A DNA stretch of 64,000 bases from the NCBI GenBank assembly GCA_963770935.1, contig CAVYRJ010000009.1:140728-204727 (forward strand), given 5' to 3'. Each line of letters opens with the position of its first letter. Within the stretch, counting starts at the first letter, position 1. A program made the position numbers and the translations under genes. Below the pieces are notes generated by a model. That model was not told the origin of the DNA and made no database searches. It worked only from the letters and a program-made list of their open reading frames with translations. Positions 6,475 to 64,000 of this stretch are shown here, one piece after another. This DNA comes from Candidatus Bathyarchaeota archaeon (lineage in GTDB: Archaea > Thermoproteota > Bathyarchaeia > Bathyarchaeales > Bathycorpusculaceae).

Positions 6475-9400
6475 TCACAATTTAATCAATTTTTTTAAGG
6501 CTTCTACTTCATAAGCTGCTCTAATTTTGAAAATTTTGCCTCCACGACCTCTCTCACCAGTGAATGCTCTTACTTCAACAATGCCACAGCGTTCCAGTTC
6601 GGATATTACTTGTCCCCGATGACCTGAAAAACCGTAAACGCTGTGTTTCGAAACTTTTCCGTGGTTCACGATTTGGTTTAAGGTTCTCCACCCTGACCTC
6701 TCAGGTGGCAACCTCAGTAGCCTGTAATCTTCAATAAAAGAGTTTATTAGAAAATCGAAGACTTTCTGAGCGGCTTCAGACTTAAATTCAAATTTGGATT
6801 ATACCAGTCTCAGCTTCATTTTCCATGTTCGTTGGCAACGCTGATTTAACGGTGATTGTCACTGGATTAATTTCGAACGTTTTAGTCTGACTTAGCTCAT
6901 CTATGTATTCAACTCGTAGACAAAGATTGAAAATCCCAGATTTGGCAGCTTTCAAACTTAGCTTAATTGGTTCAACACTAAAGGCATCAAGATTTTTTTT
7001 CATTGTAATGAAACCGTTGTTGGGGCAACTGTAATCGGAGGTAACATTGATTACTTTGAACTCTGAAGGAACCCCTTCGAATCCAACTATTTGAGCAAGT
7101 TTCTTGGATACGTTGACGACATCGAGCCGCATGTCGAATTCTTTTCGCAAGCTCAACTTCTCTTGGAGTCAATAATGTAGCATTTATAGTAGTGTGATCA
7201 AAACATTTTTCGAGATGATTAAATATTTTTTGGGTTACTTTAAGCTGTGCTTTTGCTTCTTGTGCCCGGCTTTGTTTTTCGAGAACCCAAGCATAATTTA
7301 TTCTTATCAAAACTTCTTCCGCTGGGTTAATGCCTTTCTTGAGCCATCTGAGGCATGCTTCAAAATAATGATTCGCCTCCTCACAACGGTTCGTAGCTGC
7401 AAAGTAGACCGCCTTAGACAAACCATATCTCACGAATCCGGTTGAATTCAGAACCTCTTGTGGCAGTTGGGTAAGTTTCTCAAAATATTCTTCTGCATGC
7501 TTCAGATCTCCAATTTTACTATATAGCCTTACTATATTCGCATAGGTCATGCCTTGTATCCATTTTGAATCTGTCTGCTTAGAATATTCTAGAGCTTTCA
7601 GGCTTAGTGATAACGCCTCCAATATCTCGCCTGTTCTTTCAAGAACCCATGATGAAGAAACATTTGCCTCTGCCACCCTGTTAAAATCACCTATCTTTTC
7701 GCCGATTCTAATGGCTTCTCTGTGCATATTCAACGCCTCTATTTTGAGGAGACGATAGCCGAAGCTTTGTCCAGCTCGGTTACAAGCGTCCATCAACCCT
7801 CGAACATCTCCAAGGTCGCTGTATAAGGTAACTGCACGAAGGACTCTAGCCAATCCTTTATCAAATTTGGTTTTTGCCTTGAAACCGCCTAATCCCAACA
7901 AAGTTCGGGCAACATCCGGAAAAGAGCATGTTTCCTCAAAAACCTGTAATGCTGCTTCGAAATCTTCTTTTCCAGCCTTTTGGTTTCCTAGAAATAAAGC
8001 AGCCCTTGCCTTATTCATTAGAATACGCGCGTTTTCCAAACGGTCAATGGACGAAAGCGACTCAGCATTCTTTGTTAGTTCCAACAAATGGACAAATTCG
8101 CCTTGGAAAAAAGCCGCGTCCATAGCCCGCCTTAAAGCACGCAGTTTCATAATTCCTGTTTCAATGCTGCTGAGTTGCTCAAATGTTCTTGTTGCTTCTT
8201 TAAACATACTATTTGCAAAAAAGGCTTCACCTAGACCCTCAAGCGCCGTTGCTGTTTCGGATGCATTCTGAGAGAATTCAGAAATTATTTGCATCGCAAA
8301 AGTGAAGTGTTTGAGGGCTTCTTTATTGCTGAACTTTGCCAAGGCATCCTTGCCCGCGGCCAAAGCATACTTTACTGATTTGTTTTTGTCTCCTGCTTGA
8401 GCAAAATGATATGCAAGGTCGCTTACTGGAAGTTCCTTGCCAATCTGGTTGTAGCTCTCAATTTTGTTGCCAATCCTGAGATGATACTCCTTTTTCATAA
8501 GCGACGGAATTTTATCATAAAGCATTTCGCGAGACTTTGCATGATCAAACCTGTAATAATCGCCTTCGCAACTTACCAAGAGCGTTGAGTGGGCTATCGA
8601 ATCTAACGATTCCAGAACATCCAAGCTGTCCTGAGAAACCACTTCAGCCACAAGTTTTGGATCAAATTTTTCACCTATTACAGAAGCAGTTTCTAGAATT
8701 CTTCTTTGGATAGACTTTAACGATTCAAGTCTTCTCTCGATAACATCCTTAACTTTCGCAGGAATGCCCAATTTTTCAACTTTGAGCCTCCACTCACCTT
8801 TCTCTAGATCCAAGCTTCCTTGTTCATAGAGCATCCTTACTGATTCAACAACGAAAAGGGGGTTACCTCTGCTTTCGTTTGCTAGCTGCTCAACAAGGGT
8901 CAGACTAGCGTTTCCTCCAACCATGCTCTCGACTATTTGACCAACATCGGATTGACTAAGGTTAGAAAGTTTAATCTCTTCGTAGAGACCCTCGCGACCC
9001 ATTAATCGTACAGTTTCCAGAAGGGAACGAGGCTGCCCCTCAGAGTTCATAGTCAATTCTTCACTTCTGAAAGTTGCCACAATTAAGATTCTTTCAGAGT
9101 TGATGGCACGCGCAATGTAGTGAAGTAACGAAAGCGAAGCTGAATCTGCCCAGTGTATGTCATCTATGAAAAGAACTGTCGGCTTTATCGTAGAAATCAT
9201 CAATAACTCTTTAGTTATAGCCGCAAATGTCTGGTCCTTCCAAATTTGAGGACTTGGACTACCCTGTTTCTCTAGAGTTCCAGTCCAACATGTTTCTGTA
9301 AGCCAACTCTTCATTCTCAACAGTTGAGAGCCAAATGCTTGTGCTTCATTGTCTGATGAGAAGGATTCGAAAGCTTCCACAAACGGAAAGTAAGGAACAG

Positions 9401-33684: not shown

Positions 33685-33890
33685 GAAGGAGACCTTGCCA
33701 GTTCTGTTGGGAATTGTATAATTTAAGAGTTTTCATAATTTTTTCAATTTCAACTTGCTACTTTCTGAATTATTCCATGACGATCAGGTGCGGCTGAAGA
33801 AAATGCTGCGCAAAAGGCTGATTGTTGTAGCTGCCAAACAATCACGTATGCTTAATTGCTACTCAAGGGAACAATATCTTGTGAATTAAT

Positions 33891-34116
33891 GTGGCAATCA
33901 GTGAGCGGATTGGAATTGTCCGGTTCTGTGAAACACCAAAAAATAAAGAAAGAATTATGAGCAGAACAGGTTTGAACTGATGTGCAAGCAGAATCCTATT
34001 TGACTATTCTTACAAAGCAAAACATGATAATGCAAAACAATGGGAAATATGTTGTCACAACGAAAGGGCAGGAGTACATCTTTTCCTCTGAAAGAATCAG
34101 AAAAATCAAAGCCTAA
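33891..34116 (+). CDS. Small winged-helix protein (HTH_45/ArnR1-like), one +1 frameshift near 33978
   Basis: Corrected translation: (M)AISERIGIVRFCETPKNKERIMSRTGLNDVQAESYLTILTKQNMIMQNNGKYVVTTKGQEY. Absent from the ORF track. Confidence 0.6.
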
Positions 34117-56354: not shown

Positions 56355-56651
56355 ATGCCTATAACAATCGGTGTGCTATTTAGACGAATTGTCAAAGATT
56401 TGCAGTCTCAAGACAACAATTTCGATAACTATCTGAATAATCCAAACAGCGATATCAACAATCAAAATTACGACATCAACAACCCAAATAGCGCAATTAA
56501 CAATCAATATAGTTGCATTAATGATGCGTCAAACAATGAAAAAAACAAGGAACTGAGAAGGAAAGTTCTAAGAGAACTCCTCCAGATGTATCTGTCTGAA
56601 TATCTGTCTGAAGAACGAGCAAAGAAACTTGTTGAAGAGCATATCCCATGA
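56355..56651 (+). CDS. Hypothetical protein with Asn-rich 7-aa repeats
   Basis: AGGAG SD; (L/I)NN(P/Q)xxx heptads. Confidence 0.55.
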   Translation: MPITIGVLFRRIVKDLQSQDNNFDNYLNNPNSDINNQNYDINNPNSAINNQYSCINDASNNEKNKELRRKVLRELLQMYLSEYLSEERAKKLVEEHIP

Positions 56652-56777
56652 AAGCCGTTCAATAACATAGATAATGAACATTTGCTAAACAGGGCGCTTC
56701 AGGAGATTTTCGAACTTTACTGAATTGGCCGGTATAACCTAACATATATTTTTATGCGCGTGCCAGATTAAATTATG

Positions 56778-57476
56778 TTAATTGAAGCTTTCGAATACAA
56801 TTCTCTTAAGAATAGATGCGCCATGCTTCATTTTCAATTTTTTCTCGCCCAATCGCTCTCGATACTCAATTGGGACTTCAATTGTCTCAAATCCTTGCTT
56901 GCCTACCTGATGATTCAATTCAACTTCTATGTCAAAACCTTTTGACTTAATAACCCATTTCCGGAGAATATCTGCACGGATAACCCGCAATCCGGTTAAT
57001 GGATCCTGCAAATCTATTCCATTTAGAAAACTATGAGCAAAAGCCAACAATTTATTTCCAAAGGTGAACCGACCTTTGAATGCATTTCCTTCTGTTTGTT
57101 TACTAAACCTGTTCCCGCAAACCATGCCTACCTGTGGGTTATTTTCGAGAATCTGAATCATTTCTGGCACATGTTCAGCTGGATAAGTAAAGTCCGCATC
57201 GGTGATAACCACATACTCAACATCCTCACCAATGCATTTCACAGCTTTAGCTAAAGCATCGCCTTTACCTTTGCCATCTTGAAAAATGATTTCTGCACCA
57301 TGGTCTTTGGCAACTTCAACCGTCCGATCATGGCTGTGTCCATCAATTACTAGAATACGTTTCGCATTGATGTTCTCTGAAAGCTCAGATATGGTCGCGC
57401 CTACTCCTTCTTCTTCGTTGAGTGCAGCAATAAATATGTTAATGGGTTGCGTGGGTTCATATCTTTGACCAAACAT
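56778..57476 (-). CDS. Glycosyltransferase family 2 (DPM1-like)
   Basis: AALNEE, IDGHSHDRT, GKGDAL, TDADFTYP, DPLTGLR, GFDIEVE. Confidence 0.9.
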   Translation of the reverse strand: MFGQRYEPTQPINIFIAALNEEEGVGATISELSENINAKRILVIDGHSHDRTVEVAKDHGAEIIFQDGKGKGDALAKAVKCIGEDVEYVVITDADFTYPAEHVPEMIQILENNPQVGMVCGNRFSKQTEGNAFKGRFTFGNKLLAFAHSFLNGIDLQDPLTGLRVIRADILRKWVIKSKGFDIEVELNHQVGKQGFETIEVPIEYRERLGEKKLKMKHGASILKRIVFESFN

Positions 57477-57521
57477 TTTTAATTCTCCAAATATATTTGG
57501 GGTAAAAAAAGAAAGCGGGGT

Positions 57522-57680
57522 TTATTTCCATAGTTTTTTGCCAGTGAATAGCCAAACTAGCAATAAGATTACTGCAATCACGAGCAGTATGTGTATTAGT
57601 GAGCCTACGCCAGGCAGAGCAAAGAATCCAACAGCCCAAAGTATTACAACAATTATAGCAATCGTTAACCACGTATTCAT
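57522..57680 (-). CDS. lmo0937/DUF5670-like 52-aa membrane microprotein, paralog 1
   Basis: MNTWLTIAIIVVILWAVGFFALPGVGSLIHILLVIAVILLLVWLFTGKKLWK. Absent from the ORF track. Confidence 0.85.
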   Translation of the reverse strand: MNTWLTIAIIVVILWAVGFFALPGVGSLIHILLVIAVILLLVWLFTGKKLWK

Positions 57681-57717
57681 AACAAACTCTCTAATATGTA
57701 AATTGACGTTAATGGAG

Positions 57718-57750
57718 TTAAACGTATGTGACTGTTAGTCCACACCCACA
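57718..57750 (-). promoter_or_regulatory. Dyad plus TATA-like promoter element, copy 1
   Basis: + strand ttaa acgta TGT gac TGT tagtcc ACA ccc ACA; 38 nt from ATG 57680. Confidence 0.85.
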
Positions 57751-57979
57751 TGATGACGGTTGAGCATTTTCTAATCGTTCTAAGTGCTGGACAAGAAACT
57801 GAGACGCGAAACTATTGGAGAACTTAGGTTCTCAGATTATTTTTCAGTTTTTTCCAATCGGATTAAAAGTCTATTCTTAGGTCAAAATTTAATGGTCTCT
57901 CATATCGATTGCTGTTGCTGTTGGTGTACACTTACAAATCTATTTGTCTCCAGAATTAGCCACTTAAATTGGGATAGAA

Positions 57980-58153
57980 ATGCCAGAACCAGTTTTTGAA
58001 TGGTATGTAGATAAAGTTTGAAAATACAGGTTTAGGTTGAAAACTGCTAATGGAGAAATGATTGCTGTTAATGAAGGCTATGCGTCAAAACAAGGATGCG
58101 TTGACGGAATCGAGTCAGTGAAGAAAAACGCTCCGATAGCAAAAGAAGATTAG
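57980..58153 (+). pseudogene. YegP/DUF1508-family small protein with in-frame TGA at 58019-58021
   Basis: MPEPVFEWYVDKV*KYRFRLKTANGEMIAVNEGYASKQGCVDGIESVKKNAP. Confidence 0.75.
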
Positions 58154-58229
58154 CGAATGAACTTCTCCTTTTTTTGTCGTAGCTCGTACCTTACTTTTAT
58201 CTATAAGACAAAAAAATGATAGTGAATTT

Positions 58230-58598
58230 CTATTTGGCAATTAATCCGCCTATTAAACCGCCTATCGTTGATGCTATTGCTCCAAAGATAGCTAGAATAA
58301 TCGCTACGACTCCAACTGCTAGCCCAGCTAAACCGCCGAAAAGACCACCCAGCAACCCGCCTGCGACACCTCCAACAACTGCGAGGCCAACAGCTGCAAG
58401 TATTGTAATAATGATACCGCCAAATATCCCAGCGAGGAAACCTGCTAATGCTCCATTCAACATGCCTCCGCGAGCAATGATGCCTGCTACAAATCCACCT
58501 ATGAACCCGCCTATCAAATGTCCAACGCCAGGAAACAGCCAACCAAGAAGCAACGTAATAACGAAACCAACCAGAGCTCCAAGCCACAAACTACCCAT
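58230..58598 (-). CDS. Gly-rich membrane protein (DUF5518-like)
   Basis: GGAGGTG SD; GxxxG-rich TM helices such as LIGGFIGGFVAGII and STIGGLIGG. Confidence 0.75.
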   Translation of the reverse strand: MGSLWLGALVGFVITLLLGWLFPGVGHLIGGFIGGFVAGIIARGGMLNGALAGFLAGIFGGIIITILAAVGLAVVGGVAGGLLGGLFGGLAGLAVGVVAIILAIFGAIASTIGGLIGGLIAK

Positions 58599-58652
58599 AA
58601 AATCACCTCCAATATACCAAGTACACAGTAATTTCTCAACTATTGATTTTCA

Positions 58653-58787
58653 CTATTTTTTCTTTAGACCTTTTTTTAGACCCTTACCGAAGTCATTTGT
58701 GGCTTTAGCGCCTTTCTTTATGTTTTTGCCTATTGCTTCTCCAGTTTTTTCAGCAGCATTTTCAATTTTTTCCTTTTTTGTAGACAT
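58653..58787 (-). CDS. 44-aa Lys-rich CsbD/LEA-like hydrophilic microprotein
   Basis: MSTKKEKIENAAEKTGEAIGKNIKKGAKATNDFGKGLKKGLKKK; amphipathic 11-mer periodicity. Confidence 0.7.
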   Translation of the reverse strand: MSTKKEKIENAAEKTGEAIGKNIKKGAKATNDFGKGLKKGLKKK

Positions 58788-58824
58788 TCCTTTCACTATC
58801 AGTTCTAAGTAGTCATTTGCAGAC

Positions 58825-58857
58825 TTAACTGTGTGTGACTGTGAACCCACACCAACA
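58825..58857 (-). promoter_or_regulatory. Dyad plus TATA-like promoter element, copy 2
   Basis: ttaa ctgtg TGT gac TGT gaaccc ACA cca ACA; 38 nt from ATG 58787. Confidence 0.85.
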
Positions 58858-58963
58858 CTTTGAAGGTTGTTCTGGTGTTAATTGCTTCAAATGTAGATAG
58901 AAATTGAGAACTTGAAATAGGGAAATGGTATTCAGGATATTCTTCAGCGCGCGCTTGTGCAGG

Positions 58964-59278
58964 TTAGCTTTTTTGCCTAATAACAGTGATTGTGCATCTT
59001 GTTGCTAAAGCTGCTATTGCGCCCAAAGCTGCCAACCAAGGAGCCAATATTGTTCCTACAATACCCGCCCACACCGGTATCTCTAAGAGGATCTTACCAT
59101 TCTCGTCCTTCACGATAATCCTTGATACGTCTCCCTCATGAATCAGTTCCTTGATTTTCGCTACAAGATCCTCTGAGCGGACTGTAAACTCTTCTTTTAT
59201 GCCTACTGGAGCCCCACATTTTGAACAGAATTTGGATCCTTCAGACAGGTCAGCTCCACAACTTTCACACTTAACCAT
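58964..59278 (-). CDS. Zinc-ribbon plus DUF4342 protein
   Basis: CESC...FCSKCG; LVAKIKELIHEGDVSRIIVKD...LLEIP...APWLAALGAIAAL. Confidence 0.85.
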   Translation of the reverse strand: MVKCESCGADLSEGSKFCSKCGAPVGIKEEFTVRSEDLVAKIKELIHEGDVSRIIVKDENGKILLEIPVWAGIVGTILAPWLAALGAIAALATRCTITVIRQKS

Positions 59279-59299
59279 TTTATTCTCCTCCCAAAGTAT

Positions 59300-59518
59300 C
59301 TATTTAGTTGATTTTTTTCTCTCTACAACAAAAGCGATTTTGACGACAGTTCTGTATTCAACAATTTTGTTGCTTTCTACTTTTGCAGTGCACCGCTTCA
59401 CGTAAACTGACTTAATGTTCTTTATTGTCTTAGCCGCTTCAGCCAACGCATTCTTCGCAGCATCTTCCCAATCCTTTGGTGAACTGCCTATTAACTCAAC
59501 AATTTTTACAACAGTCAT
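59300..59518 (-). CDS. Dodecin (flavin-binding)
   Basis: VVKIVELIGSSPKDWEDAAKNALAEAAKTIKNI...IVEYR..VKIAF. Confidence 0.9.
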   Translation of the reverse strand: MTVVKIVELIGSSPKDWEDAAKNALAEAAKTIKNIKSVYVKRCTAKVESNKIVEYRTVVKIAFVVERKKSTK

Positions 59519-59546
59519 ATCTTTCATATCTCCTTAAAGTATCGTT

Positions 59547-59709
59547 TTATTTCCACAGCTTTTTGCCAGTTAGACAGCCAAACTACAATTAAAATTACTG
59601 CAATTACGAGCAGTATGTGTATTAATGAGCCTACGCCTGGCAAAGCAAAGAAACCAACCAACCAAAGTACCACAAGAACAAGAACAATAGCCAATATAGT
59701 GTTCAACAA
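59547..59709 (-). CDS. lmo0937/DUF5670-like membrane microprotein, paralog 2 (+1 insertion near 59572)
   Basis: Shares GFFALPGVGSLIHILLVIAVIL with 57522-57680. Removing one base restores the TGKKLWK* ending. Confidence 0.82.
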
Positions 59710-59768
59710 TTACCCCTTCTTTTCAAGCTAATCAAACAATCTACTTTAATTATGGGTTAGCGGCGAAC

Positions 59769-59801
59769 TTAAGCGTGTGTAGCTGTTAGGTTACAGCAAC
59801 A
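59769..59801 (-). promoter_or_regulatory. Dyad plus TATA-like promoter element, copy 3
   Basis: ttaa gcgtg TGT agc TGT taggtt ACA gca ACA. Confidence 0.85.
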
Positions 59802-59840
59802 AGAAGGCGGTAATATGATTTGACTGCTCGCACTCTTAAG

Positions 59841-60345
59841 TTAGAAGTGTTTCATGATAAAATCCCTAATGGCTCTATGACTAGTCATGAGTTCAACTAT
59901 CTTTTTTGTAGCTTGCGTTATTTGTGTATCAAATAATCTTGTTACAGCCAGAGAAAATACAAACACGAAACGTGCCGATTATTATGCTTCCAATGACATT
60001 TATTGAACCAAGATACCATACGATAAGATATGTAACTGCAGCACTTATGAGCCCCATGAGAAAAGATCTTATTATAAAATAAAGTCGCTGCAACCAAGTA
60101 GAAAACAACAGAACCTTGATCACTGCTCTTTTCTCTAACTCATTTTCAGCTCCAGATTTAACGATTCCTATCTTTTGCAGTACTCCTTTTGCGTAATGGG
60201 CGTCTGACAAACGTAACATCATTTTAGCATAACGAGCGTCGGATAAATCGGTGGAACTTGCGGTTTCAAGCTCTAACAAAATCCTTTGCGCTATTTCATC
60301 TATTTCAGCATCTACTCTCTCTATTTTGGCATCTTTAGTTGCCAT
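59841..60345 (-). CDS. Hypothetical membrane protein (+1 frameshift near 59968)
   Basis: MATKDAKIERVDAEID... with two TM helices; the +1 frame continues VFVFSLAVTRLFD...FIMKHF to TAA 59841. Confidence 0.6.
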
Positions 60346-60361
60346 AGTACCCTCAACGATT

Positions 60362-60721
60362 TTATTCTCTGGTTTCGAGGCAGTTGGGAGCTGGGAAGAG
60401 CTTAATTGTTTCTTTACAATTAAGTAAAGCACTAAAAGAATCAGTGCACCAATAATGCCTGAAGATATGCCTGTGATGTACCAAGCTTTCCACGCGGGCA
60501 TGAAAGTCATAAGGTACTTTAATGAACCGATTAGGGTGAAGATGGCGGCAGATCCTAAAAATGAAATGGTCAGAGCTAATAAAATGCTGATAATTATGCT
60601 TGTTATCAGAAGTTTTTTGAGTACGTTTTTTTAGAGCAACCTCTGTTTCATGCACGTATTCTCTTAGAATGGCTTTTATCTCATTGAAAAATGCTTTGAT
60701 TATTTCTCTTAAGGAAGTCAA
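60362..60721 (-). CDS. YqjE/Phage_holin_3_6-like two-TM protein (+1 frameshift near 60622)
   Basis: Helical N-terminus ...ETEVALKKR, then in the shifted frame LKKLLITSIIISILLAL...MPAWKAWYITG...LIVKKQL. The 3' end, or a fusion to the next gene, is uncertain. Confidence 0.55.
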   Translation of the reverse strand: MTSLREIIKAFFNEIKAILREYVHETEVALKKRTQKTSDNKHNYQHFISSDHFIFRICRHLHPNRFIKVPYDFHARVESLVHHRHIFRHYWCTDSFSALLNCKETIKLFPAPNCLETRE

Positions 60722-60771
60722 CTAATCCTTACACCTACAACTCTCAGATGACAAGTTGTTTGTCAGTATAC

Positions 60772-60804
60772 TTAACGATGTGTGACTGTTTACTTACATC
60801 AACA
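60772..60804 (-). promoter_or_regulatory. Dyad plus TATA-like promoter element, copy 4
   Basis: ttaa cgatg TGT gac TGT ttactt ACA tca ACA. Confidence 0.85.
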
Positions 60805-60911
60805 AAACGCTTTATGAATATCATAAGCCTCAGATTAAAAAGAAAAAAGGATTTACGGAGCAAGGCACCCAGCGAAAAAGGCTGTTTAGTTCAATAAAAA
60901 GAATGTGCGAC

Positions 60912-61112
60912 TTACTTCTTCTTTTCTCTAATAGCGACCTTGGCTTTCAAGTCAATGATGTATTCCTTTTCGTTTTTTCCAACACCAAAGTTCCATTCTA
61001 ACACTTCAAAATCAATATCTTTGAAGTGGTTAACCCAAGATTTCTGGAATTCACTCCATTTCTCGCCCATTTTCTCTATCTGCTCTTTGACGTCTATATG
61101 TTGTTCTGACAT
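60912..61112 (-). CDS. Small hypothetical protein (66 aa)
   Basis: GGAGGTG SD; co-oriented downstream of the PRC-barrel gene. Confidence 0.7.
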   Translation of the reverse strand: MSEQHIDVKEQIEKMGEKWSEFQKSWVNHFKDIDFEVLEWNFGVGKNEKEYIIDLKAKVAIREKKK

Positions 61113-61155
61113 AATTTGTTACACCTCCCGAAACGCGCAAGAAAATAACGCAGGA

Positions 61156-61446
61156 TTATGTTTTAACTACTGGTCTTAGGTACATGTGAAGCTGATCTTT
61201 TGAAACTTTCAAGTGCAATCCATTGTCTGTCCAACGTGCAACCCCTTTCTCTAGGGATGAAACGGCCAGCATGTTTCGTACTCCACCTTTCTTTGCGCCA
61301 AGCACTGATTCAGCAATCTCCTTTCTCAATTCGATTTCAAGATGAGTTATTTTCCACTCTTCCGGATCTACTTCAATACCTTTTACTGTGCCGATTTTCT
61401 CGTCTAACGCAAAAACACTTCGATTTATAAACTCTCTAGTTCTCAT
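61156..61446 (-). CDS. PRC-barrel domain protein
   Basis: EFINRSVFALDEKIGTVKGIEVDPEEWKITHLEI; AGGAGG SD. Confidence 0.8.
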   Translation of the reverse strand: MRTREFINRSVFALDEKIGTVKGIEVDPEEWKITHLEIELRKEIAESVLGAKKGGVRNMLAVSSLEKGVARWTDNGLHLKVSKDQLHMYLRPVVKT

Positions 61447-61509
61447 ACTTATCTAACCTCCTTTCTATTCTCAGAATTTGAGCTACCTTAATAATGGTCA
61501 TTGGCTGAG

Positions 61510-61542
61510 TTAAACGTGTGTGACTGTGAACCTACACCGACA
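61510..61542 (-). promoter_or_regulatory. Dyad plus TATA-like promoter element, copy 5
   Basis: ttaa acgtg TGT gac TGT gaacct ACA ccg ACA. Confidence 0.85.
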
Positions 61543-61629
61543 TTCTAACGGTTGTGATTGCGCAGTCCTTTCCAATCTGTTGACAGAGACTGAGGCTCGA
61601 AAATAAAGGAGTAAACTGAGTTTCTCAGG

Positions 61630-62417
61630 TTAGTTTTCAGCTTTTTTCCAGTCGGATTCAAAACCTGTTCTTAATACGCCTATAAGGTTGCTGTTGTTTG
61701 TCCACAAAGAAGGGCTTTCGCCTAATCCGCTTTCTTTGGAGGTGGTAATCAATGCTTCTTTGTCATCAGACATTATGAAGTGATTCAATGGTTCACGATG
61801 AAATTTAATGTTAACCGACGCGCTTCCGATGAGTTTTTGCACTTTTTCTTTAAGCAAAATATCCGGGCTTTCTCCTTCAAAGATCAGTCGAATCTTAGCC
61901 CCTTTCTTTATTGCATGCTTATGTTCATCTGGAAAACTGAGCCAAAATCTGTGCGATTCTTGCCTTGTCTGCAATCAACGCGACTTCTTTTTTCGAGTTA
62001 CTAATCAGTTCTGAAGTCTTGGCCAAAATTGCTTTCTTTTCCGCTATCAGTATGTAGATGCTTTCTTCTCCAAGAGGCGGCTGCTTCCAATCTTTGAGGG
62101 ATAACTTCTGGACCCTACTCCTCATACCTGTCAACCGTTCCTCGGATCTATTTTTTTCTTCCGTCACTAGTGAAGTTAAGGAATCCGAAATACGAGTAGC
62201 CCGAATCTCAGTTGGTTTGCCCAAAAATCTTTCAATCAAGCCCATTTTTTCGAGTGACGGCAGAATTCTGTAGACGTCTTCCCTGCGCACTTTTGAAAAG
62301 TTCGCTACCTGTCCCACTGTAGTTTTTTCCAGTTTAAGTATCGCTAAGTAAACCTTTGCCTGGTTAAGACTCAAACCCAAACCAAGCAGTAAGATCTGTG
62401 TTTTCATCGTTTGCCAT
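61630..62417 (-). CDS. TrmB-family transcriptional regulator (+1 frameshifts near 62392 and 61934)
   Basis: LGLSLNQAKVYLAIL...VRREDVYRILPSLEKMGLIER..GKP winged helix; effector domain GAKIRLI...HFIMSDDKEALI...LWTNN...FESDWKKA. Confidence 0.85.
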
Positions 62418-62677
62418 TCTGAACTTCCATTAGTATTTCTTGTATCAATTTATATATAAAATTTTTTTACCACTTTCGCAGAATTAATAATTGTCATTGC
62501 TTTCTACAACTATACCCTCCTTGACGAAATCTATTTACCAAACAAAATGCGGAAGATAAGCGTCCATCTTTCGTCGGCAACGACTAAAAGCCACAACCAA
62601 GCATGAACATTTACCCGAATCTATATAATTTTTACACTGGAAAAAAAAATTGTAGACCCCAAGTTTTCCACAGGTCA

Positions 62678-63013
62678 TTACTTGTAATGGGTTAAAACTA
62701 CAATCAGCCCAATTATTGCGCCGAGTAAAACCAGCAATCCGCCGAGTCCACCGCCGATGAGTCCCACAATTATCAGCACTATAGCCCAGACAAGAGTAGT
62801 GACGCTTCTTGAACCGATGATCGCTATGACGCCGCAGATTAACATTACAATTCCACTGTACGCAAACGAGTAGACACTCCAATAGAAGAATGATGGTCCT
62901 CCGAATCCTATTGATAATAAACTTAGCAACCCAAAGATTACCAGCAGAATGCCACCAATAAGCGTTAAGATATAAGCTACTTGCCCTAGAGAAGTTCGAG
63001 CCATTAGATCCAT
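62678..63013 (-). CDS. Small Gly-rich membrane protein
   Basis: AGGAGGTG SD; 3-4 TM helices, LIGGGLGGLLVLLGAIIGL. Confidence 0.7.
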   Translation of the reverse strand: MDLMARTSLGQVAYILTLIGGILLVIFGLLSLLSIGFGGPSFFYWSVYSFAYSGIVMLICGVIAIIGSRSVTTLVWAIVLIIVGLIGGGLGGLLVLLGAIIGLIVVLTHYK

Positions 63014-63234
63014 TCACCTCCTACCTGGACCACTGGCTGAGTCCAGCCACATGAGTCAGTTGTTTTGTCTTTCTTCTTTTTTTGCAATACCACATTTTTG
63101 TCGTGTTCCAATATATAATAAACACATGAAATAATCTCAAATCTCCATCAATTTCTTATTACCGCAAATTTCGGTGTTTACTAACCTGCACTCAATGATT
63201 TCCAATAGTTTTCCTAAAGAAAAGAAATTTTTAT

Positions 63235-63576
63235 TTAGGACAATACGAAGCCGATGACAAAGCCAACGATTAGTCCTAAACCCAGCGGCAACATACCCAT
63301 TAGAAGTACCCCGTATTGAACTGCTATAGGACCATATGTGTCTGCAAGACCTTTCAAGGCGCCAAGACTTAAACCGAAAAACCCAAAGTAAGCAACCACA
63401 ACCAATATAATCGCAGCTATAATCGCAATCTTTAGCATTTTATGAACCAAATAACCCACAATCAATCCAATTACAAATGGAATAATCATTACTACAATTG
63501 GCGGTAAACCACCTATGCTTCCAGAAGTAATGAACCCAAATACATCTTCTAAGGCACCCAAAATTCCAAACTCCAA
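63235..63576 (-). CDS. FUN14-like small membrane protein
   Basis: PFVIGLIVGYLVHKMLKIAII...GLGLIVGFVIG. Confidence 0.65.
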   Translation of the reverse strand: MEFGILGALEDVFGFITSGSIGGLPPIVVMIIPFVIGLIVGYLVHKMLKIAIIAAIILVVVAYFGFFGLSLGALKGLADTYGPIAVQYGVLLMGMLPLGLGLIVGFVIGFVLS

Positions 63577-63604
63577 ACAAGTTACTTAACGGTTCAAATT
63601 ACTT

Positions 63605-63637
63605 ATAAGGTTGTGTTACTGTAGGTCCACAGTAACA
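63605..63637 (-). promoter_or_regulatory. Dyad plus TATA promoter element, copy 6 (perfect 9-bp arms)
   Basis: ataa ggttg TGTTACTGT aggtcc ACAGTAACA; CTTATAAG about 27 nt from TTG 63576. Confidence 0.85.
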
Positions 63638-63930
63638 CGTCATTTATGAGGATTGCTGTATGGTTTTGACGCAGCTTAAGCAAACAGATTGCAAATGGGA
63701 ATAGCCTGCACCTTGTTGAAGACCCTTAATTTGTCTTTTTGACCGCATGGTTGATGTTCAAAGAATTGAGCATGGAAATATAGAGACGATTGATTAACAT
63801 CTTGCGAAAAAGGAATGGCGTGGATTCCAAGAATTGCGAGTCTCTAATAAGTAGAACTCTGCATTGAAGGCCTTAAGTTCTTTAGAAAAGGGAGGCCTAA
63901 AACATGCAAAACCACCAAAAACAAGCATTC

Positions 63931-63990
63931 ATCGCCAGGATAAACCCCTGTATGTTTTAACATATTGGTGCTGGAGGTGGGATTCGGACT
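63931..63990. repeat. Right copy of the degenerate direct repeat with tRNA 3'-end-like sequence
   Basis: atcgccaggataaacccctgtatgttttaacatattggtgctggaggtgggattcggact. Minus strand reads GTCCGAATCCCACCTCCAGCACCA. Confidence 0.7.
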
Positions 63991-64000
63991 ACCTGTCAGG

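What the first reader, a model, noticed from the sequence alone, without database searches (positions are those of the whole stretch)
57718..63637. Six-copy 24-bp dyad locked to a weak TATA box: candidate new archaeal regulon or promoter class
Seen: six non-coding 33-mers align without gaps (57718-57750, 58825-58857, 59769-59801, 60772-60804, 61510-61542, 63605-63637) as + strand WTAA-N5-TGT-N3-TGT-N6-ACA-N3-ACA. All 12 dyad bases are invariant, while the 6-bp spacers differ (tagtcc, gaaccc, taggtt, ttactt, gaacct, aggtcc). Each lies upstream of the first gene of a minus-strand unit, about 27-64 nt from its start. On the coding strand the dyad is followed after exactly 5 nt by TTAA/TTAT, within TTTAAC, GTTAAG, CTTAAG or CTTATAAG. 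Copies 1, 2 and 5 also share GGTTG 7 nt beyond the dyad. Known: archaeal promoters are BRE-TATA, and activators such as Ptr2 or TrmB-like proteins bind just upstream. Inference: the proximal arm abuts or overlaps the BRE position of mostly non-canonical TATA boxes, so a dimeric or tetrameric activator, or an alternative TFB, may switch these genes on together like a bacterial alternative sigma factor. I know of no described archaeal motif of this form.
Basis: partly seen in the sequence, partly recalled or inferred. Interest (0 to 1): 0.92.

Follow-up and report, generated by a model that had tools for sequence, protein, structure and literature searches.

The report
Stress-gene promoter motif in Bathyarchaeia
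A conserved 24-base DNA signal sits at a fixed distance in front of the promoters of about thirty small stress-protein genes in a group of uncultured peat and soil archaea, marking what looks like a jointly switched stress-gene set whose regulator protein is still unknown.

Summary
It occurs 10 times in the 1.98 Mb genome. A position matrix finds 43 sites, against 1-7 in shuffles.

The dyad lies 5 nt upstream of a TTAA-type box and 35-82 nt before start codons. It is conserved in 16 of 19 genomes of the genus. It is found upstream of 54 of 78 PRC-barrel orthologue loci, mostly at 69-74 nt. It also occurs in two more distant Bathyarchaeia lineages.

Targets are families typical of bacterial general-stress regulons. 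They include DUF5670, DUF5518, CsbD, KGG, DUF1508, dodecin, PRC barrel, bacterial PH domain, DJ-1, SOD and ferritin.

My best reading is the binding site of a dimeric or tetrameric transcription factor, probably an activator, beside a weak BRE/TATA. An alternative TFB alone is unlikely. The factor is unresolved: a linked TrmB paralogue and an Sso10a-like HTH_45 protein are both imperfect candidates. No transcript start or binding data exist. I rate it a new member of a known kind, of moderate to high interest.

The parts
57727..57750 (-). Dyad copy 1. The TTAA box is at 57718-57721, 5 nt downstream on the coding (-) strand.
57522..57680 (-). DUF5670 small membrane protein (52 aa), first gene behind copy 1. 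The GT2 glycosyltransferase at 56778-57476 follows on the same strand.
   Evidence: Pfam PF18919 E 7e-11 and PF00535 E 2e-19. The start lies 46 nt after the dyad.
57913..57936 (+). It faces the + strand gene, and the box position reads ATTT.
   Evidence: Its matrix score is 16.0 bits.
57980..58153 (+). DUF1508 (YegP-like) gene with an in-frame TGA at 58019-58021.
   Evidence: Translation. Pfam PF07411 E 1.7e-19 on the part after the stop.
58834..58857 (-). Dyad copy 2. The TTAA box is at 58825-58828.
58230..58787 (-). Unit behind copy 2: a 44-aa lysine-rich CsbD-like protein (58653-58787, no Pfam hit) and DUF5518 (58230-58598).
   Evidence: (PF17647 E 2e-11). Relatives carry a true CsbD behind a dyad.
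59778..59801 (-). Dyad copy 3. The TTAA box is at 59769-59772.
58964..59709 (-). Unit behind copy 3: DUF5670 (59524-59709), dodecin (59300-59527) and Zn-ribbon plus DUF4342 (58964-59278).
   Evidence: PF18919, PF07311 E 1e-24, PF14242 E 9e-27
60781..60804 (-). Dyad copy 4. The TTAA box is at 60772-60775.
59929..60721 (-). Membrane-protein unit behind copy 4. Here it is read as two overlapping frames (60362-60721 and 59929-60510), so it is apparently frameshifted.
   Evidence: no Pfam hit. Intact 115-119-aa and about 167-aa homologues exist in relatives.
61519..61542 (-). Dyad copy 5. The TTAA box is at 61510-61513.
   Evidence: The orthologous site is conserved in 54 of 78 loci.
60912..61446 (-). 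Unit behind copy 5: PRC-barrel protein (61156-61446) and a 66-aa protein (60912-61112).
   Evidence: PF05239 E 1.7e-4. The start lies 72 nt after the dyad.
63614..63637 (-). Dyad copy 6, a near-perfect palindrome. The box reads TTAT on the coding strand (63605-63608).
63235..63576 (-). 113-aa membrane protein behind copy 6. The 111-aa membrane protein at 62678-63013 lies further downstream.
   Evidence: no Pfam hit. The homologue family occurs in 29 related loci.
61630..62407 (-). TrmB-family regulator gene, here split into two overlapping frames. It has its own canonical TATA and no dyad. It is candidate factor 1.
   Evidence: PF01978 E 2.6e-15. It is intact in relatives at 261-270 aa. It is present in 35 of 85 related loci.
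33823..34116 (+). Degenerate dyad (33823-33846, 3 core mismatches, 19.0 bits) followed by a small HTH_45 (Sso10a-like) winged-helix gene (33891-34116, frameshifted here). It is candidate factor 2.

Best explanation
The 24-bp dyad is the binding site of a sequence-specific, dimeric or dimer-of-dimers transcription factor.

In its oriented form it reads TGTyGs-TGT-N6-ACA-GTC-ACA. After 5 nt comes a short TTAA-type TATA box behind a BRE that lacks the usual A-run. The start codon follows 35-82 nt after the dyad.

I infer that the bound factor sits immediately upstream of, and touching, the place where TFB and TBP bind. I further infer that it helps them onto an intrinsically weak core promoter, switching on about 30 transcription units together.

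These units encode small proteins of families known from bacterial general-stress regulons. The set therefore acts as a general or oxidative stress regulon of a group of peat and soil Bathyarchaeia.

Shown: the motif, its fixed phasing with the box, its genome-wide distribution, its conservation upstream of orthologues in many genomes, and the gene families behind it.

Inferred: that the box is the TATA box, that the site activates rather than represses, that stress is the signal, and which protein binds.
For: Enrichment:
- 7 copies in the window, against 0 in 100 shuffles.
- 10 copies in the genome.
- 43 matrix hits of 12 bits or more, against 1, 7 and 2 in three shuffles.

Phasing:
- 6 of the genome's 10 exact dyads have TTAA exactly 5 nt away (G000 row).
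- 85 of 111 exact sites in 811 kb of related loci have TTAA, TTTA or TTAT at that place on at least one side.
- Among 85 oriented sites the distal arm differs systematically from the proximal arm: G at arm position 5 in 73 of 85, where a palindrome needs A. The element is therefore directional relative to the box.

Conservation:
- 16 of 19 genus genomes have 3-18 exact dyads. The reversed-pattern control gives 0-1.
- 54 of 78 usable PRC-barrel loci have the dyad with 2 mismatches or fewer within 200 nt upstream. Of these, 46 are exact, and 38 of the 46 lie 69-74 nt before the start. Spacers and flanks vary.
- The dyad plus TTAA occurs in 18 of 301 genomes of the class, with 0 control hits in all 301. 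This includes two other families, with 8 sites in G227 and 20 in G118.

Targets by Pfam:
- DUF5670 twice, DUF5518 twice, dodecin, DUF4342, PRC barrel and DUF1508.
- KGG stress repeat, two glyoxalase/VOC proteins, cupin, GYD, a receiver domain and a C2H2 finger.
- In other lineages: CsbD, bPH_3, ferritin-like, Fe/Mn SOD, photolyase, DJ-1/PfpI, flavodoxin, DUF1428 and Band_7.

Other points:
- Only the triplets are kept and the N3 bases of the two arms do not pair. That fits protein read-out, not a hairpin.
- tRNA promoters of the genome show canonical TTTAAA/TTTATA boxes with an A-rich BRE, unlike the CACACACG-yTTAA(C/G)T of dyad promoters (by eye).
- RNA contigs of close relatives lie on the PRC-barrel, DUF5670 and dodecin genes in an RNA library. 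This is weak evidence, because contigs cannot show level or starts.
Against: - No transcript start was mapped, so the identity of the TTAA box as the TATA box rests on position and composition alone.
- No expression data under stress and no protein-DNA data exist.
- The proximal ACA triplet would overlap the upstream edge of a 6-7 bp BRE. That geometry also suits a repressor that blocks TFB.
- No single candidate factor is found in all dyad-rich genomes.
- 24 of 78 PRC-barrel loci lack the dyad at 2 mismatches or fewer.
- Three genus genomes have no exact dyad: G006, G011 and G018.
- Related genomes are not independent samples.
- The position matrix was built from 15 sites that are among its own hits.
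Confidence: 0.6

Rival explanations
1. The dyad is the operator of a repressor. The bound factor covers the BRE edge and keeps TFB and TBP off, and stress releases it (derepression rather than activation).
For: The proximal arm ends only 5 nt from the box, so it overlaps the upstream end of a BRE of usual length. In G227 one perfect palindrome lies between a TATA-like run and the start of a TrmB-MEDS gene (L115 7998-8021; start at 8044). That position is typical of archaeal repression, but the same site can also be read as a leftward promoter.
Against: Most of the element lies upstream of the core promoter, not over the TATA box or the transcript start. The core boxes look weak: a short A/T run and no A-rich BRE. 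A repressed promoter would not need that. Orientation and 5-nt phasing are kept very strictly, which suggests a stereospecific contact with the basal machinery.
Confidence: 0.22
2. The element is a composite core promoter read by an alternative TFB (or TBP) paralogue. On this view it works as an archaeal analogue of a sigma-factor promoter class, with no separate activator.
For: The genome has 5 TFB genes, and relatives have 3-5. The dyad-free genus member G006 shows about 2. The proximal arm and linker (GTCACA-CACGy) occupy the BRE position and are the best conserved part outside the triplets.
Against: The distal arm lies up to 29 nt upstream of the box (25-29 nt). It is as invariant as the proximal one, and the whole has dyad symmetry. 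By recalled textbook knowledge TFB contacts only about 6-7 bp upstream of the TATA box. The TFB copy numbers are match counts in a handful of genomes, not a test.
Confidence: 0.08
3. The element is a repeat without regulatory meaning: a chance pattern, the remnant of a mobile element, or a recombination site.
For: Seven copies are clustered in 6 kb at a contig end.
Against: Zero matches in shuffles. Spacers and flanks differ between copies. Sites are scattered over 9 contigs, always in front of start codons. They are kept upstream of orthologues in dozens of genomes at one distance. No Rfam family matches 56500-64000.
Confidence: 0.02

Closest known systems
Archaeal upstream factor sites next to BRE/TATA. 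Examples, recalled and not tested here: Ptr2 sites in Methanocaldococcus jannaschii, the TFB-RF1 site in Pyrococcus furiosus, and the TGM motif of TrmBL1/Tgr in Thermococcales.
   Same: A palindromic site for an oligomeric winged-helix factor placed just upstream of the core promoter. Position relative to the TATA box decides the effect. A whole regulon shares the site.
   Different: The sequence is unrelated: four TGT/ACA triplets over 24 bp, against the recalled TGM consensus TATCAC-N5-GTGATA. The phasing to the box is a strict 5 nt. The two arms are systematically asymmetric. The targets are stress proteins, not sugar metabolism. The lineage is uncultured Bathyarchaeia, and the factor is unknown.
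Bacterial general stress regulons (sigma-B, sigma-S, EcfG). Their membership lists are recalled, not tested here.
   Same: The gene families behind the dyad are largely the same kinds of small proteins: CsbD, KGG repeat, DUF1508/YegP, DUF5670 (lmo0937-like), dodecin, PRC barrel, bacterial PH domain, DJ-1/PfpI, flavodoxin, SOD and ferritin-like.
   Different: Control cannot go through a sigma factor in an archaeon. Here a dyad beside a TATA box takes that role. Induction by stress is not shown.
Sso10a / HTH_45 proteins of Sulfolobales (PDB 1r7j and 4hw0; PMC4941522, passages read).
   Same: Candidate factor 2 is a homologue (profile E 4.6e-13 to 1r7j). Sso10a forms a dimer through an antiparallel coiled coil with a winged helix at each end, which could span a long dyad.
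   Different: The paper describes Sso10a proteins as architectural DNA benders and bridgers, with no sequence-specific role shown. Here the homologue carries the dyad in its own promoter in at least 11 genomes or loci. It was not found in three dyad-rich genomes.
TrmB family, nearest solved relative TrmBL2 (PDB 5bpd, 5bqt, 5box).
   Same: Candidate factor 1 has the TrmB HTH and the TrmB regulator domain. It is about the size of TrmBL2 (E 1.8e-8). It sits next to dyad promoters in 35 of 85 related loci.
   Different: It is only distantly related to TrmBL2. Close orthologues occur in only part of the dyad-bearing genomes. There is no dyad upstream of its own gene in the genus.

Membership tests
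Archaeal transcription-factor site upstream of BRE/TATA (activator-type UAS) | Lies at a fixed, short distance upstream of the core promoter box, in one orientation relative to the gene | tested here: met
   A 5-nt gap to TTAA/TTAT in 6 of 7 window copies. In related loci, 85 of 111 exact sites have such a box on at least one side. Starts lie 35-82 nt downstream. That the box is the TATA box is inferred.
Archaeal transcription-factor site upstream of BRE/TATA (activator-type UAS) | Conserved upstream of orthologous genes while the surrounding sequence drifts | tested here: met
   54 of 78 PRC-barrel loci have it at 2 mismatches or fewer. 38 of the 46 exact sites lie 69-74 nt from the start. 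42 DUF5670 genes lie behind sites.
Archaeal transcription-factor site upstream of BRE/TATA (activator-type UAS) | Bound by a specific factor that raises transcription | not testable with these tools
Only RNA contigs were available.
Archaeal transcription-factor site upstream of BRE/TATA (activator-type UAS) | Transcript start about 25 nt downstream of the box | tested here: inconclusive
   The RNA runs are kept as contigs, and no starts or ends were reported (table 6: none).
TrmB-family operator (TGM-like) | Matches the TGM consensus (recalled: TATCAC-N5-GTGATA) | tested here: not met
   The dyad consensus is TGTGACTGT-N6-ACAGTCACA. The consensus it is compared with is recalled, not taken from a call.
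TrmB-family operator (TGM-like) | The cognate TrmB gene co-occurs with the motif | tested here: inconclusive
   The gene is linked in 35 of 85 loci. Close orthologues occur in only 4 of 19 genus genomes. No match at E of 1e-15 or better in G118, which has 20 sites.
Alternative-TFB promoter class (extended BRE) | The conserved element is confined to the few bases next to the TATA box that TFB can reach | tested here: not met
   The invariant triplets extend to 29 nt upstream of the box and have dyad symmetry.
Alternative-TFB promoter class (extended BRE) | Several TFB paralogues are present | tested here: met
   10 cyclin-repeat matches, equal to 5 genes, in G000. There are 3-5 genes in G003, G016, G118 and G227.
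General stress regulon (functional analogue of sigma-B / sigma-S / EcfG regulons) | Members are the typical small stress-protein families | tested here: met
   Pfam hits. That these families belong to the bacterial regulons is recalled knowledge.
General stress regulon (functional analogue of sigma-B / sigma-S / EcfG regulons) | Joint induction by several stresses | not testable with these tools
   No condition-resolved expression data were available.
Repeat or mobile-element remnant | Copies share sequence beyond the motif and are not tied to gene starts | tested here: not met
   Spacers and flanks differ. Sites precede start codons.

The most novel reading that the evidence does not exclude
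These Bathyarchaeia run a true general stress response, the archaeal counterpart of the bacterial sigma-B, sigma-S and EcfG systems. It would be built from a single composite promoter type: a weak BRE/TATA that works only with the dyad 5 nt upstream. One dedicated factor would drive it, possibly an Sso10a-type protein turned from chromatin protein into a self-activating specific regulator, or a TrmB paralogue with a sensor domain. The regulon consists largely of bacterial-type stress proteins. It appears patchily in three Bathyarchaeia lineages, which suggests that it spread together with its control element.
Probability: 0.3. Interest if true: 0.75.

Novelty: new member of a known kind. Interest (0 to 1): 0.6.

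Why it matters
Bathyarchaeia are abundant and uncultured. As far as my four literature searches reach, no regulon of theirs has been described.

This element gives a defined, testable regulatory code: a 24-bp site, its phasing to the core promoter, and a list of about 30 target units per genome.

It allows three things:
- Stress-responsive genes can be predicted in metagenomes.
- Metatranscriptomes of peat and soil can be interpreted.
- The factor can be fished out with a DNA bait.

It also raises the question of how archaea without sigma factors co-ordinate bacterial-type general stress proteins.

Tried and rejected
Factor identification by co-occurrence did not give a clean answer.

- The clustered TrmB paralogue has hits of 70% identity or more only in G000, G002, G003 and G013 among 19 genus genomes. 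Weaker relatives occur in G016, G254 and G227, and none in G118. It was not found at E of 1e-30 or better in G119, G151, G156 and G174.
- The HTH_45 profile A1 gives strong hits (87 bits or more) in 15 of 19 genus genomes and none in 12 genomes of other families. It gave no hit at E of 1e-12 or better in G118 and G227. It gave only paralogue-level hits in G016 and G254. It is present in G151, which has no dyad+TTAA site, and in G011, which has no exact dyad.
- Downstream genes of 12 more sites in G118, G227, G224, G070 and G114 showed no recurring regulator.

RNA evidence was weak. One search found four runs, all kept as contigs. When laid, they show RNA contigs of relatives on several target genes, but no starts, ends or strand. 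Parts without cover say nothing.

- Rfam search of 56500-64000 at E of 0.1 or better: no match.
- Literature: four searches on Bathyarchaeia with factor motifs, on archaea with CsbD, dodecin and PRC barrel, on HTH_45/PF14947, and on Bathyarchaeota metatranscriptomes with PRC barrel returned nothing relevant. I saw only listings and abstracts.
- A fifth search found the Sso10a paper, of which I read passages. Supplements were not consulted.
- I considered a hairpin or cruciform and rejected it, because the N3 bases of the two arms do not pair.
- I considered a CRP/FNR-type half-site (TGTGA) and rejected it, because the spacing does not fit. The CRP consensus is recalled.
- Not used: structure prediction, complex prediction, the large protein searches and the protein atlas.

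Full report
**Observation.** The pattern TGT-N3-TGT-N6-ACA-N3-ACA has 7 exact matches in the window. All lie between 57727 and 63637. None occurs in 100 dinucleotide-preserving shuffles. The seventh (57913-57936) faces the + strand.

The window is the last 64 kb of contig C9 of a 1.98 Mb, 18-contig genome, so the cluster may continue beyond the contig end. The whole genome has 10 exact copies, against 0-1 in five local shuffles. It has 18 one-mismatch copies, against 1-9.

**Genome-wide picture.** I built a 46-nt position matrix from 15 oriented sites. It finds 43 hits of 12 bits or more, on 13 of the 18 contigs, against 1, 7 and 2 in three shuffles. The 15 seed sites are among the hits, and a few palindromic sites score on both strands. 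For nearly all hits an open reading frame starts 35-82 nt downstream.

The oriented consensus is TGT-yGs-TGT-N6-ACA-GTC-ACA-yA-N3-TTAA. The arm next to the box is a near-perfect TGTGACTGT in reverse complement. The far arm systematically has G where a palindrome would need A: 73 of 85 oriented sites from relatives. The element is thus a dyad with a built-in direction.

**Genes behind the sites.** In the window the following lie behind dyads:
- DUF5670 (twice).
- A 44-aa lysine-rich CsbD-like protein together with DUF5518.
- Dodecin and a Zn-ribbon/DUF4342 protein, in one unit with DUF5670.
- A membrane-protein pair.
- A PRC-barrel protein together with a 66-aa protein.
- A 113-aa membrane protein.
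- DUF1508, on the + strand.

Elsewhere in the genome the targets are a KGG 'stress-induced' repeat protein, two glyoxalase/VOC proteins, a cupin, a GYD protein and a receiver domain. They also include a C2H2 finger protein, a second DUF5518, an F420-type oxidoreductase and several proteins with no family.

From my own knowledge, most of these families are regular members of bacterial general-stress regulons. Pfam's own descriptions say so for KGG and CsbD.

**Conservation.** The organism is a Bathyarchaeia MAG of the peat and soil type, by the record titles of near-identical loci.

Of 19 genomes of the genus (the window's own included), 16 carry 3-18 exact dyads, while the reversed control pattern gives 0-1. 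G006, G011 and G018 carry none. Twelve genomes of other families of the order carry 0-2.

I fetched 80 loci encoding relatives of the PRC-barrel protein (68-98% identity). Of these, 78 had enough upstream sequence. Among the 78, 46 have an exact dyad within 200 nt upstream, 6 have one mismatch and 2 have two. The other 24 have three or more. Of the 46 exact sites, 38 end 69-74 nt before the start codon, one ends at 94 nt, and seven lie at 128-139 nt in the opposite orientation. Spacers and flanks differ between these loci, so this is a phylogenetic footprint.

Those 80 loci (811 kb) hold 111 exact dyads, and 85 have TTAA, TTTA or TTAT at the +6 to +9 place on at least one side. Behind the oriented sites in the related loci and the window's own genome together, the commonest genes are:
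- PRC barrel (49).
- DUF5670 (42).
- The CsbD-like protein (10), plus a Pfam-confirmed CsbD (4).
- The 66-aa protein (7).
- A small winged-helix protein (3).
- KGG (2).

Across 301 genomes of the class, the dyad plus N5 plus TTAA occurs in 18, and the control pattern in none. Those 18 are the window's own genome, 9 of 14 other members of its genus, 3 of 6 of a sister genus, 2 genomes of another family of the order (G227 with 8 sites) and 3 of a distant family (G118 with 20 sites).

In G227 the sites precede a ferritin-like protein, Fe/Mn superoxide dismutase, photolyase, a pyridine-nucleotide disulphide oxidoreductase and a GYD protein. In G118 they precede DUF1428, a bacterial PH domain protein and DUF5670. 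They also precede DJ-1/PfpI, an operon ending in a flavodoxin, and a Band_7 protein. The same control element in front of the same kind of genes in distant lineages is the strongest argument for a stress regulon.

**Mechanism.** tRNA genes of this genome are preceded by TTTAAA/TTTATA-type boxes, with an A-rich stretch where the BRE lies (read by eye). Dyad promoters instead have yTTAA followed by C or G, and the BRE place reads CACACACGy. The core promoter therefore looks weak.

The proximal arm ends 5 nt from the box, so the bound protein would touch or overlap the upstream edge of TFB's footprint. By recalled knowledge of archaeal systems such as Ptr2, TFB-RF1 and TrmBL1/Tgr, sites upstream of BRE/TATA activate. 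Sites over or behind the TATA box repress.

The strict phasing, the fixed orientation and the weak core favour an activator that recruits TFB and TBP. I put this at about 0.6. I put a repressor at about 0.2 and an alternative TFB alone at under 0.1. The genome does have 5 TFB genes and relatives have 3-5, so a specialised TFB working together with the factor is not excluded.

The N3 bases of the two arms do not pair, so a DNA or RNA hairpin is unlikely. No Rfam family matches.

**Which factor.** There are two candidates, and neither is clean.

(a) A TrmB-family gene lies in the cluster at 61630-62407. In this assembly it is split by a frameshift. It is intact at 261-270 aa in relatives, and its nearest solved relative is TrmBL2.
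- For it: it is the commonest regulator gene near the PRC-barrel promoter, present in 35 of 85 loci.
- For it: in G227 a TrmB-MEDS fusion sits among the dyads, with a perfect palindrome 22 nt before its start.
- Against it: close orthologues occur in only 4 of 19 genus genomes.
- Against it: its own promoter has no dyad (0 of 35 with 1 mismatch or fewer).
- Against it: G118 has no hit at E of 1e-15 or better.

(b) A small HTH_45 winged-helix protein, homologous to Sso10a (E 4.6e-13 to PDB 1r7j), comes in a short and a long form.
- For it: it carries the dyad in its own promoter in L046, L071 and L073. The same holds in 6 of 7 long-form loci and 1 of 6 short-form loci fetched, and in G174 and G236.
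- For it: in this window a degenerate site at 33823 precedes a frameshifted copy.
- For it: Sso10a dimerises through an antiparallel coiled coil with a winged helix at each end (PMC4941522, passages), which could suit a long dyad.
- For it: its specific subfamily is present in 15 of 19 genus genomes and in none of 12 from other families.
- Against it: it was not found in the dyad-rich G016, G118 and G227. It may therefore be a target rather than the master regulator.

I put the TrmB paralogue at about 0.35, the HTH_45 protein at about 0.3, and another protein at about 0.35.

**RNA.** One RNA library (X1) holds contigs 88-99% identical to the PRC-barrel, DUF5670 and dodecin genes, with high contig depth. 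These come from relatives. Several contigs join the PRC-barrel stop directly to a DUF5670 start, the gene order seen in L014. Contigs cannot give starts, strand or level, so this shows only that such genes occur in an RNA library.

**Comparison and novelty.** In kind, this is an archaeal upstream factor site defining a regulon, which is a known kind of thing. New here are the sequence, the four-triplet architecture with directional asymmetry, the strict 5-nt coupling to a weak box, the lineage, and the content of the regulon. Four literature searches found no description. The library lacks most subscription journals and I did not see supplements, so 'not in print' is limited to that.

**Caveats.** Related genomes are not independent. 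Gene calls are my own simple open-reading-frame calls. Several genes in this assembly are interrupted (see Noticed in passing), probably by homopolymer errors. The roles of the TATA box and the BRE are inferred from position.

Noticed in passing
window 57980-58153 (+), stop at 58019-58021: The DUF1508 (YegP-like) gene behind the seventh dyad has an in-frame TGA where intact relatives have a glycine codon (VGK against V*K). It could be a nonsense mutation, a sequencing error or a read-through.
   Followed up: partly
window 61925-61974; 60362-60721 with 59929-60510; 33891-34116: Three more genes are split by apparent frameshifts: the TrmB paralogue, a membrane-protein pair and the HTH_45 gene. 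An RNA contig of a relative lacks one T at 60623 and has an extra T after 60344, both at T runs. This suggests homopolymer errors of a long-read assembly rather than real pseudogenes.
   Followed up: partly
G000 C3:48113-48661, C4:143359-143910, C4:145324-145875, C1:194064-194615, C16:117437-117988: The genome has five TFB (TFIIB) genes, two of them close together on C4. Relatives have 3-5, and the dyad-free G006 has about 2.
   Followed up: no
whole genomes: The TrmB family is strongly expanded in this genus: up to 16 matches per genome and 9 in G000, against 0-2 in 12 genomes of other families of the order. The two dyad-free genus members G006 and G018 have none at E of 1e-10 or better.
   Followed up: no
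L115 8044-9459 (G227:C5): A 471-aa protein joins a TrmB HTH and regulator domain to a MEDS sensory domain (PF14417 E 6e-33). It sits in the middle of a dyad cluster that controls SOD, ferritin-like and photolyase genes.
   Followed up: partly
window 57680 joined to 61155-61168 in RNA contigs; L014 5778-6307: In relatives the PRC-barrel gene is followed directly by a DUF5670 gene, so the two lie on one RNA contig. In this window the two genes are 3.5 kb apart, each with its own dyad.
   Followed up: no
L025 (record titled Candidatus Sulfotelmatobacter): A contig filed under a bacterial MAG carries a 96%-identical PRC-barrel gene with an exact dyad upstream. It is probably an archaeal contig binned into the wrong genome.
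   Followed up: no
L140 162-434 (G118:C47): A 90-aa protein with no Pfam family lies behind an exact dyad+TTAA in the distant lineage G118. It is an unexplored candidate for a lineage-specific regulon member.
   Followed up: no
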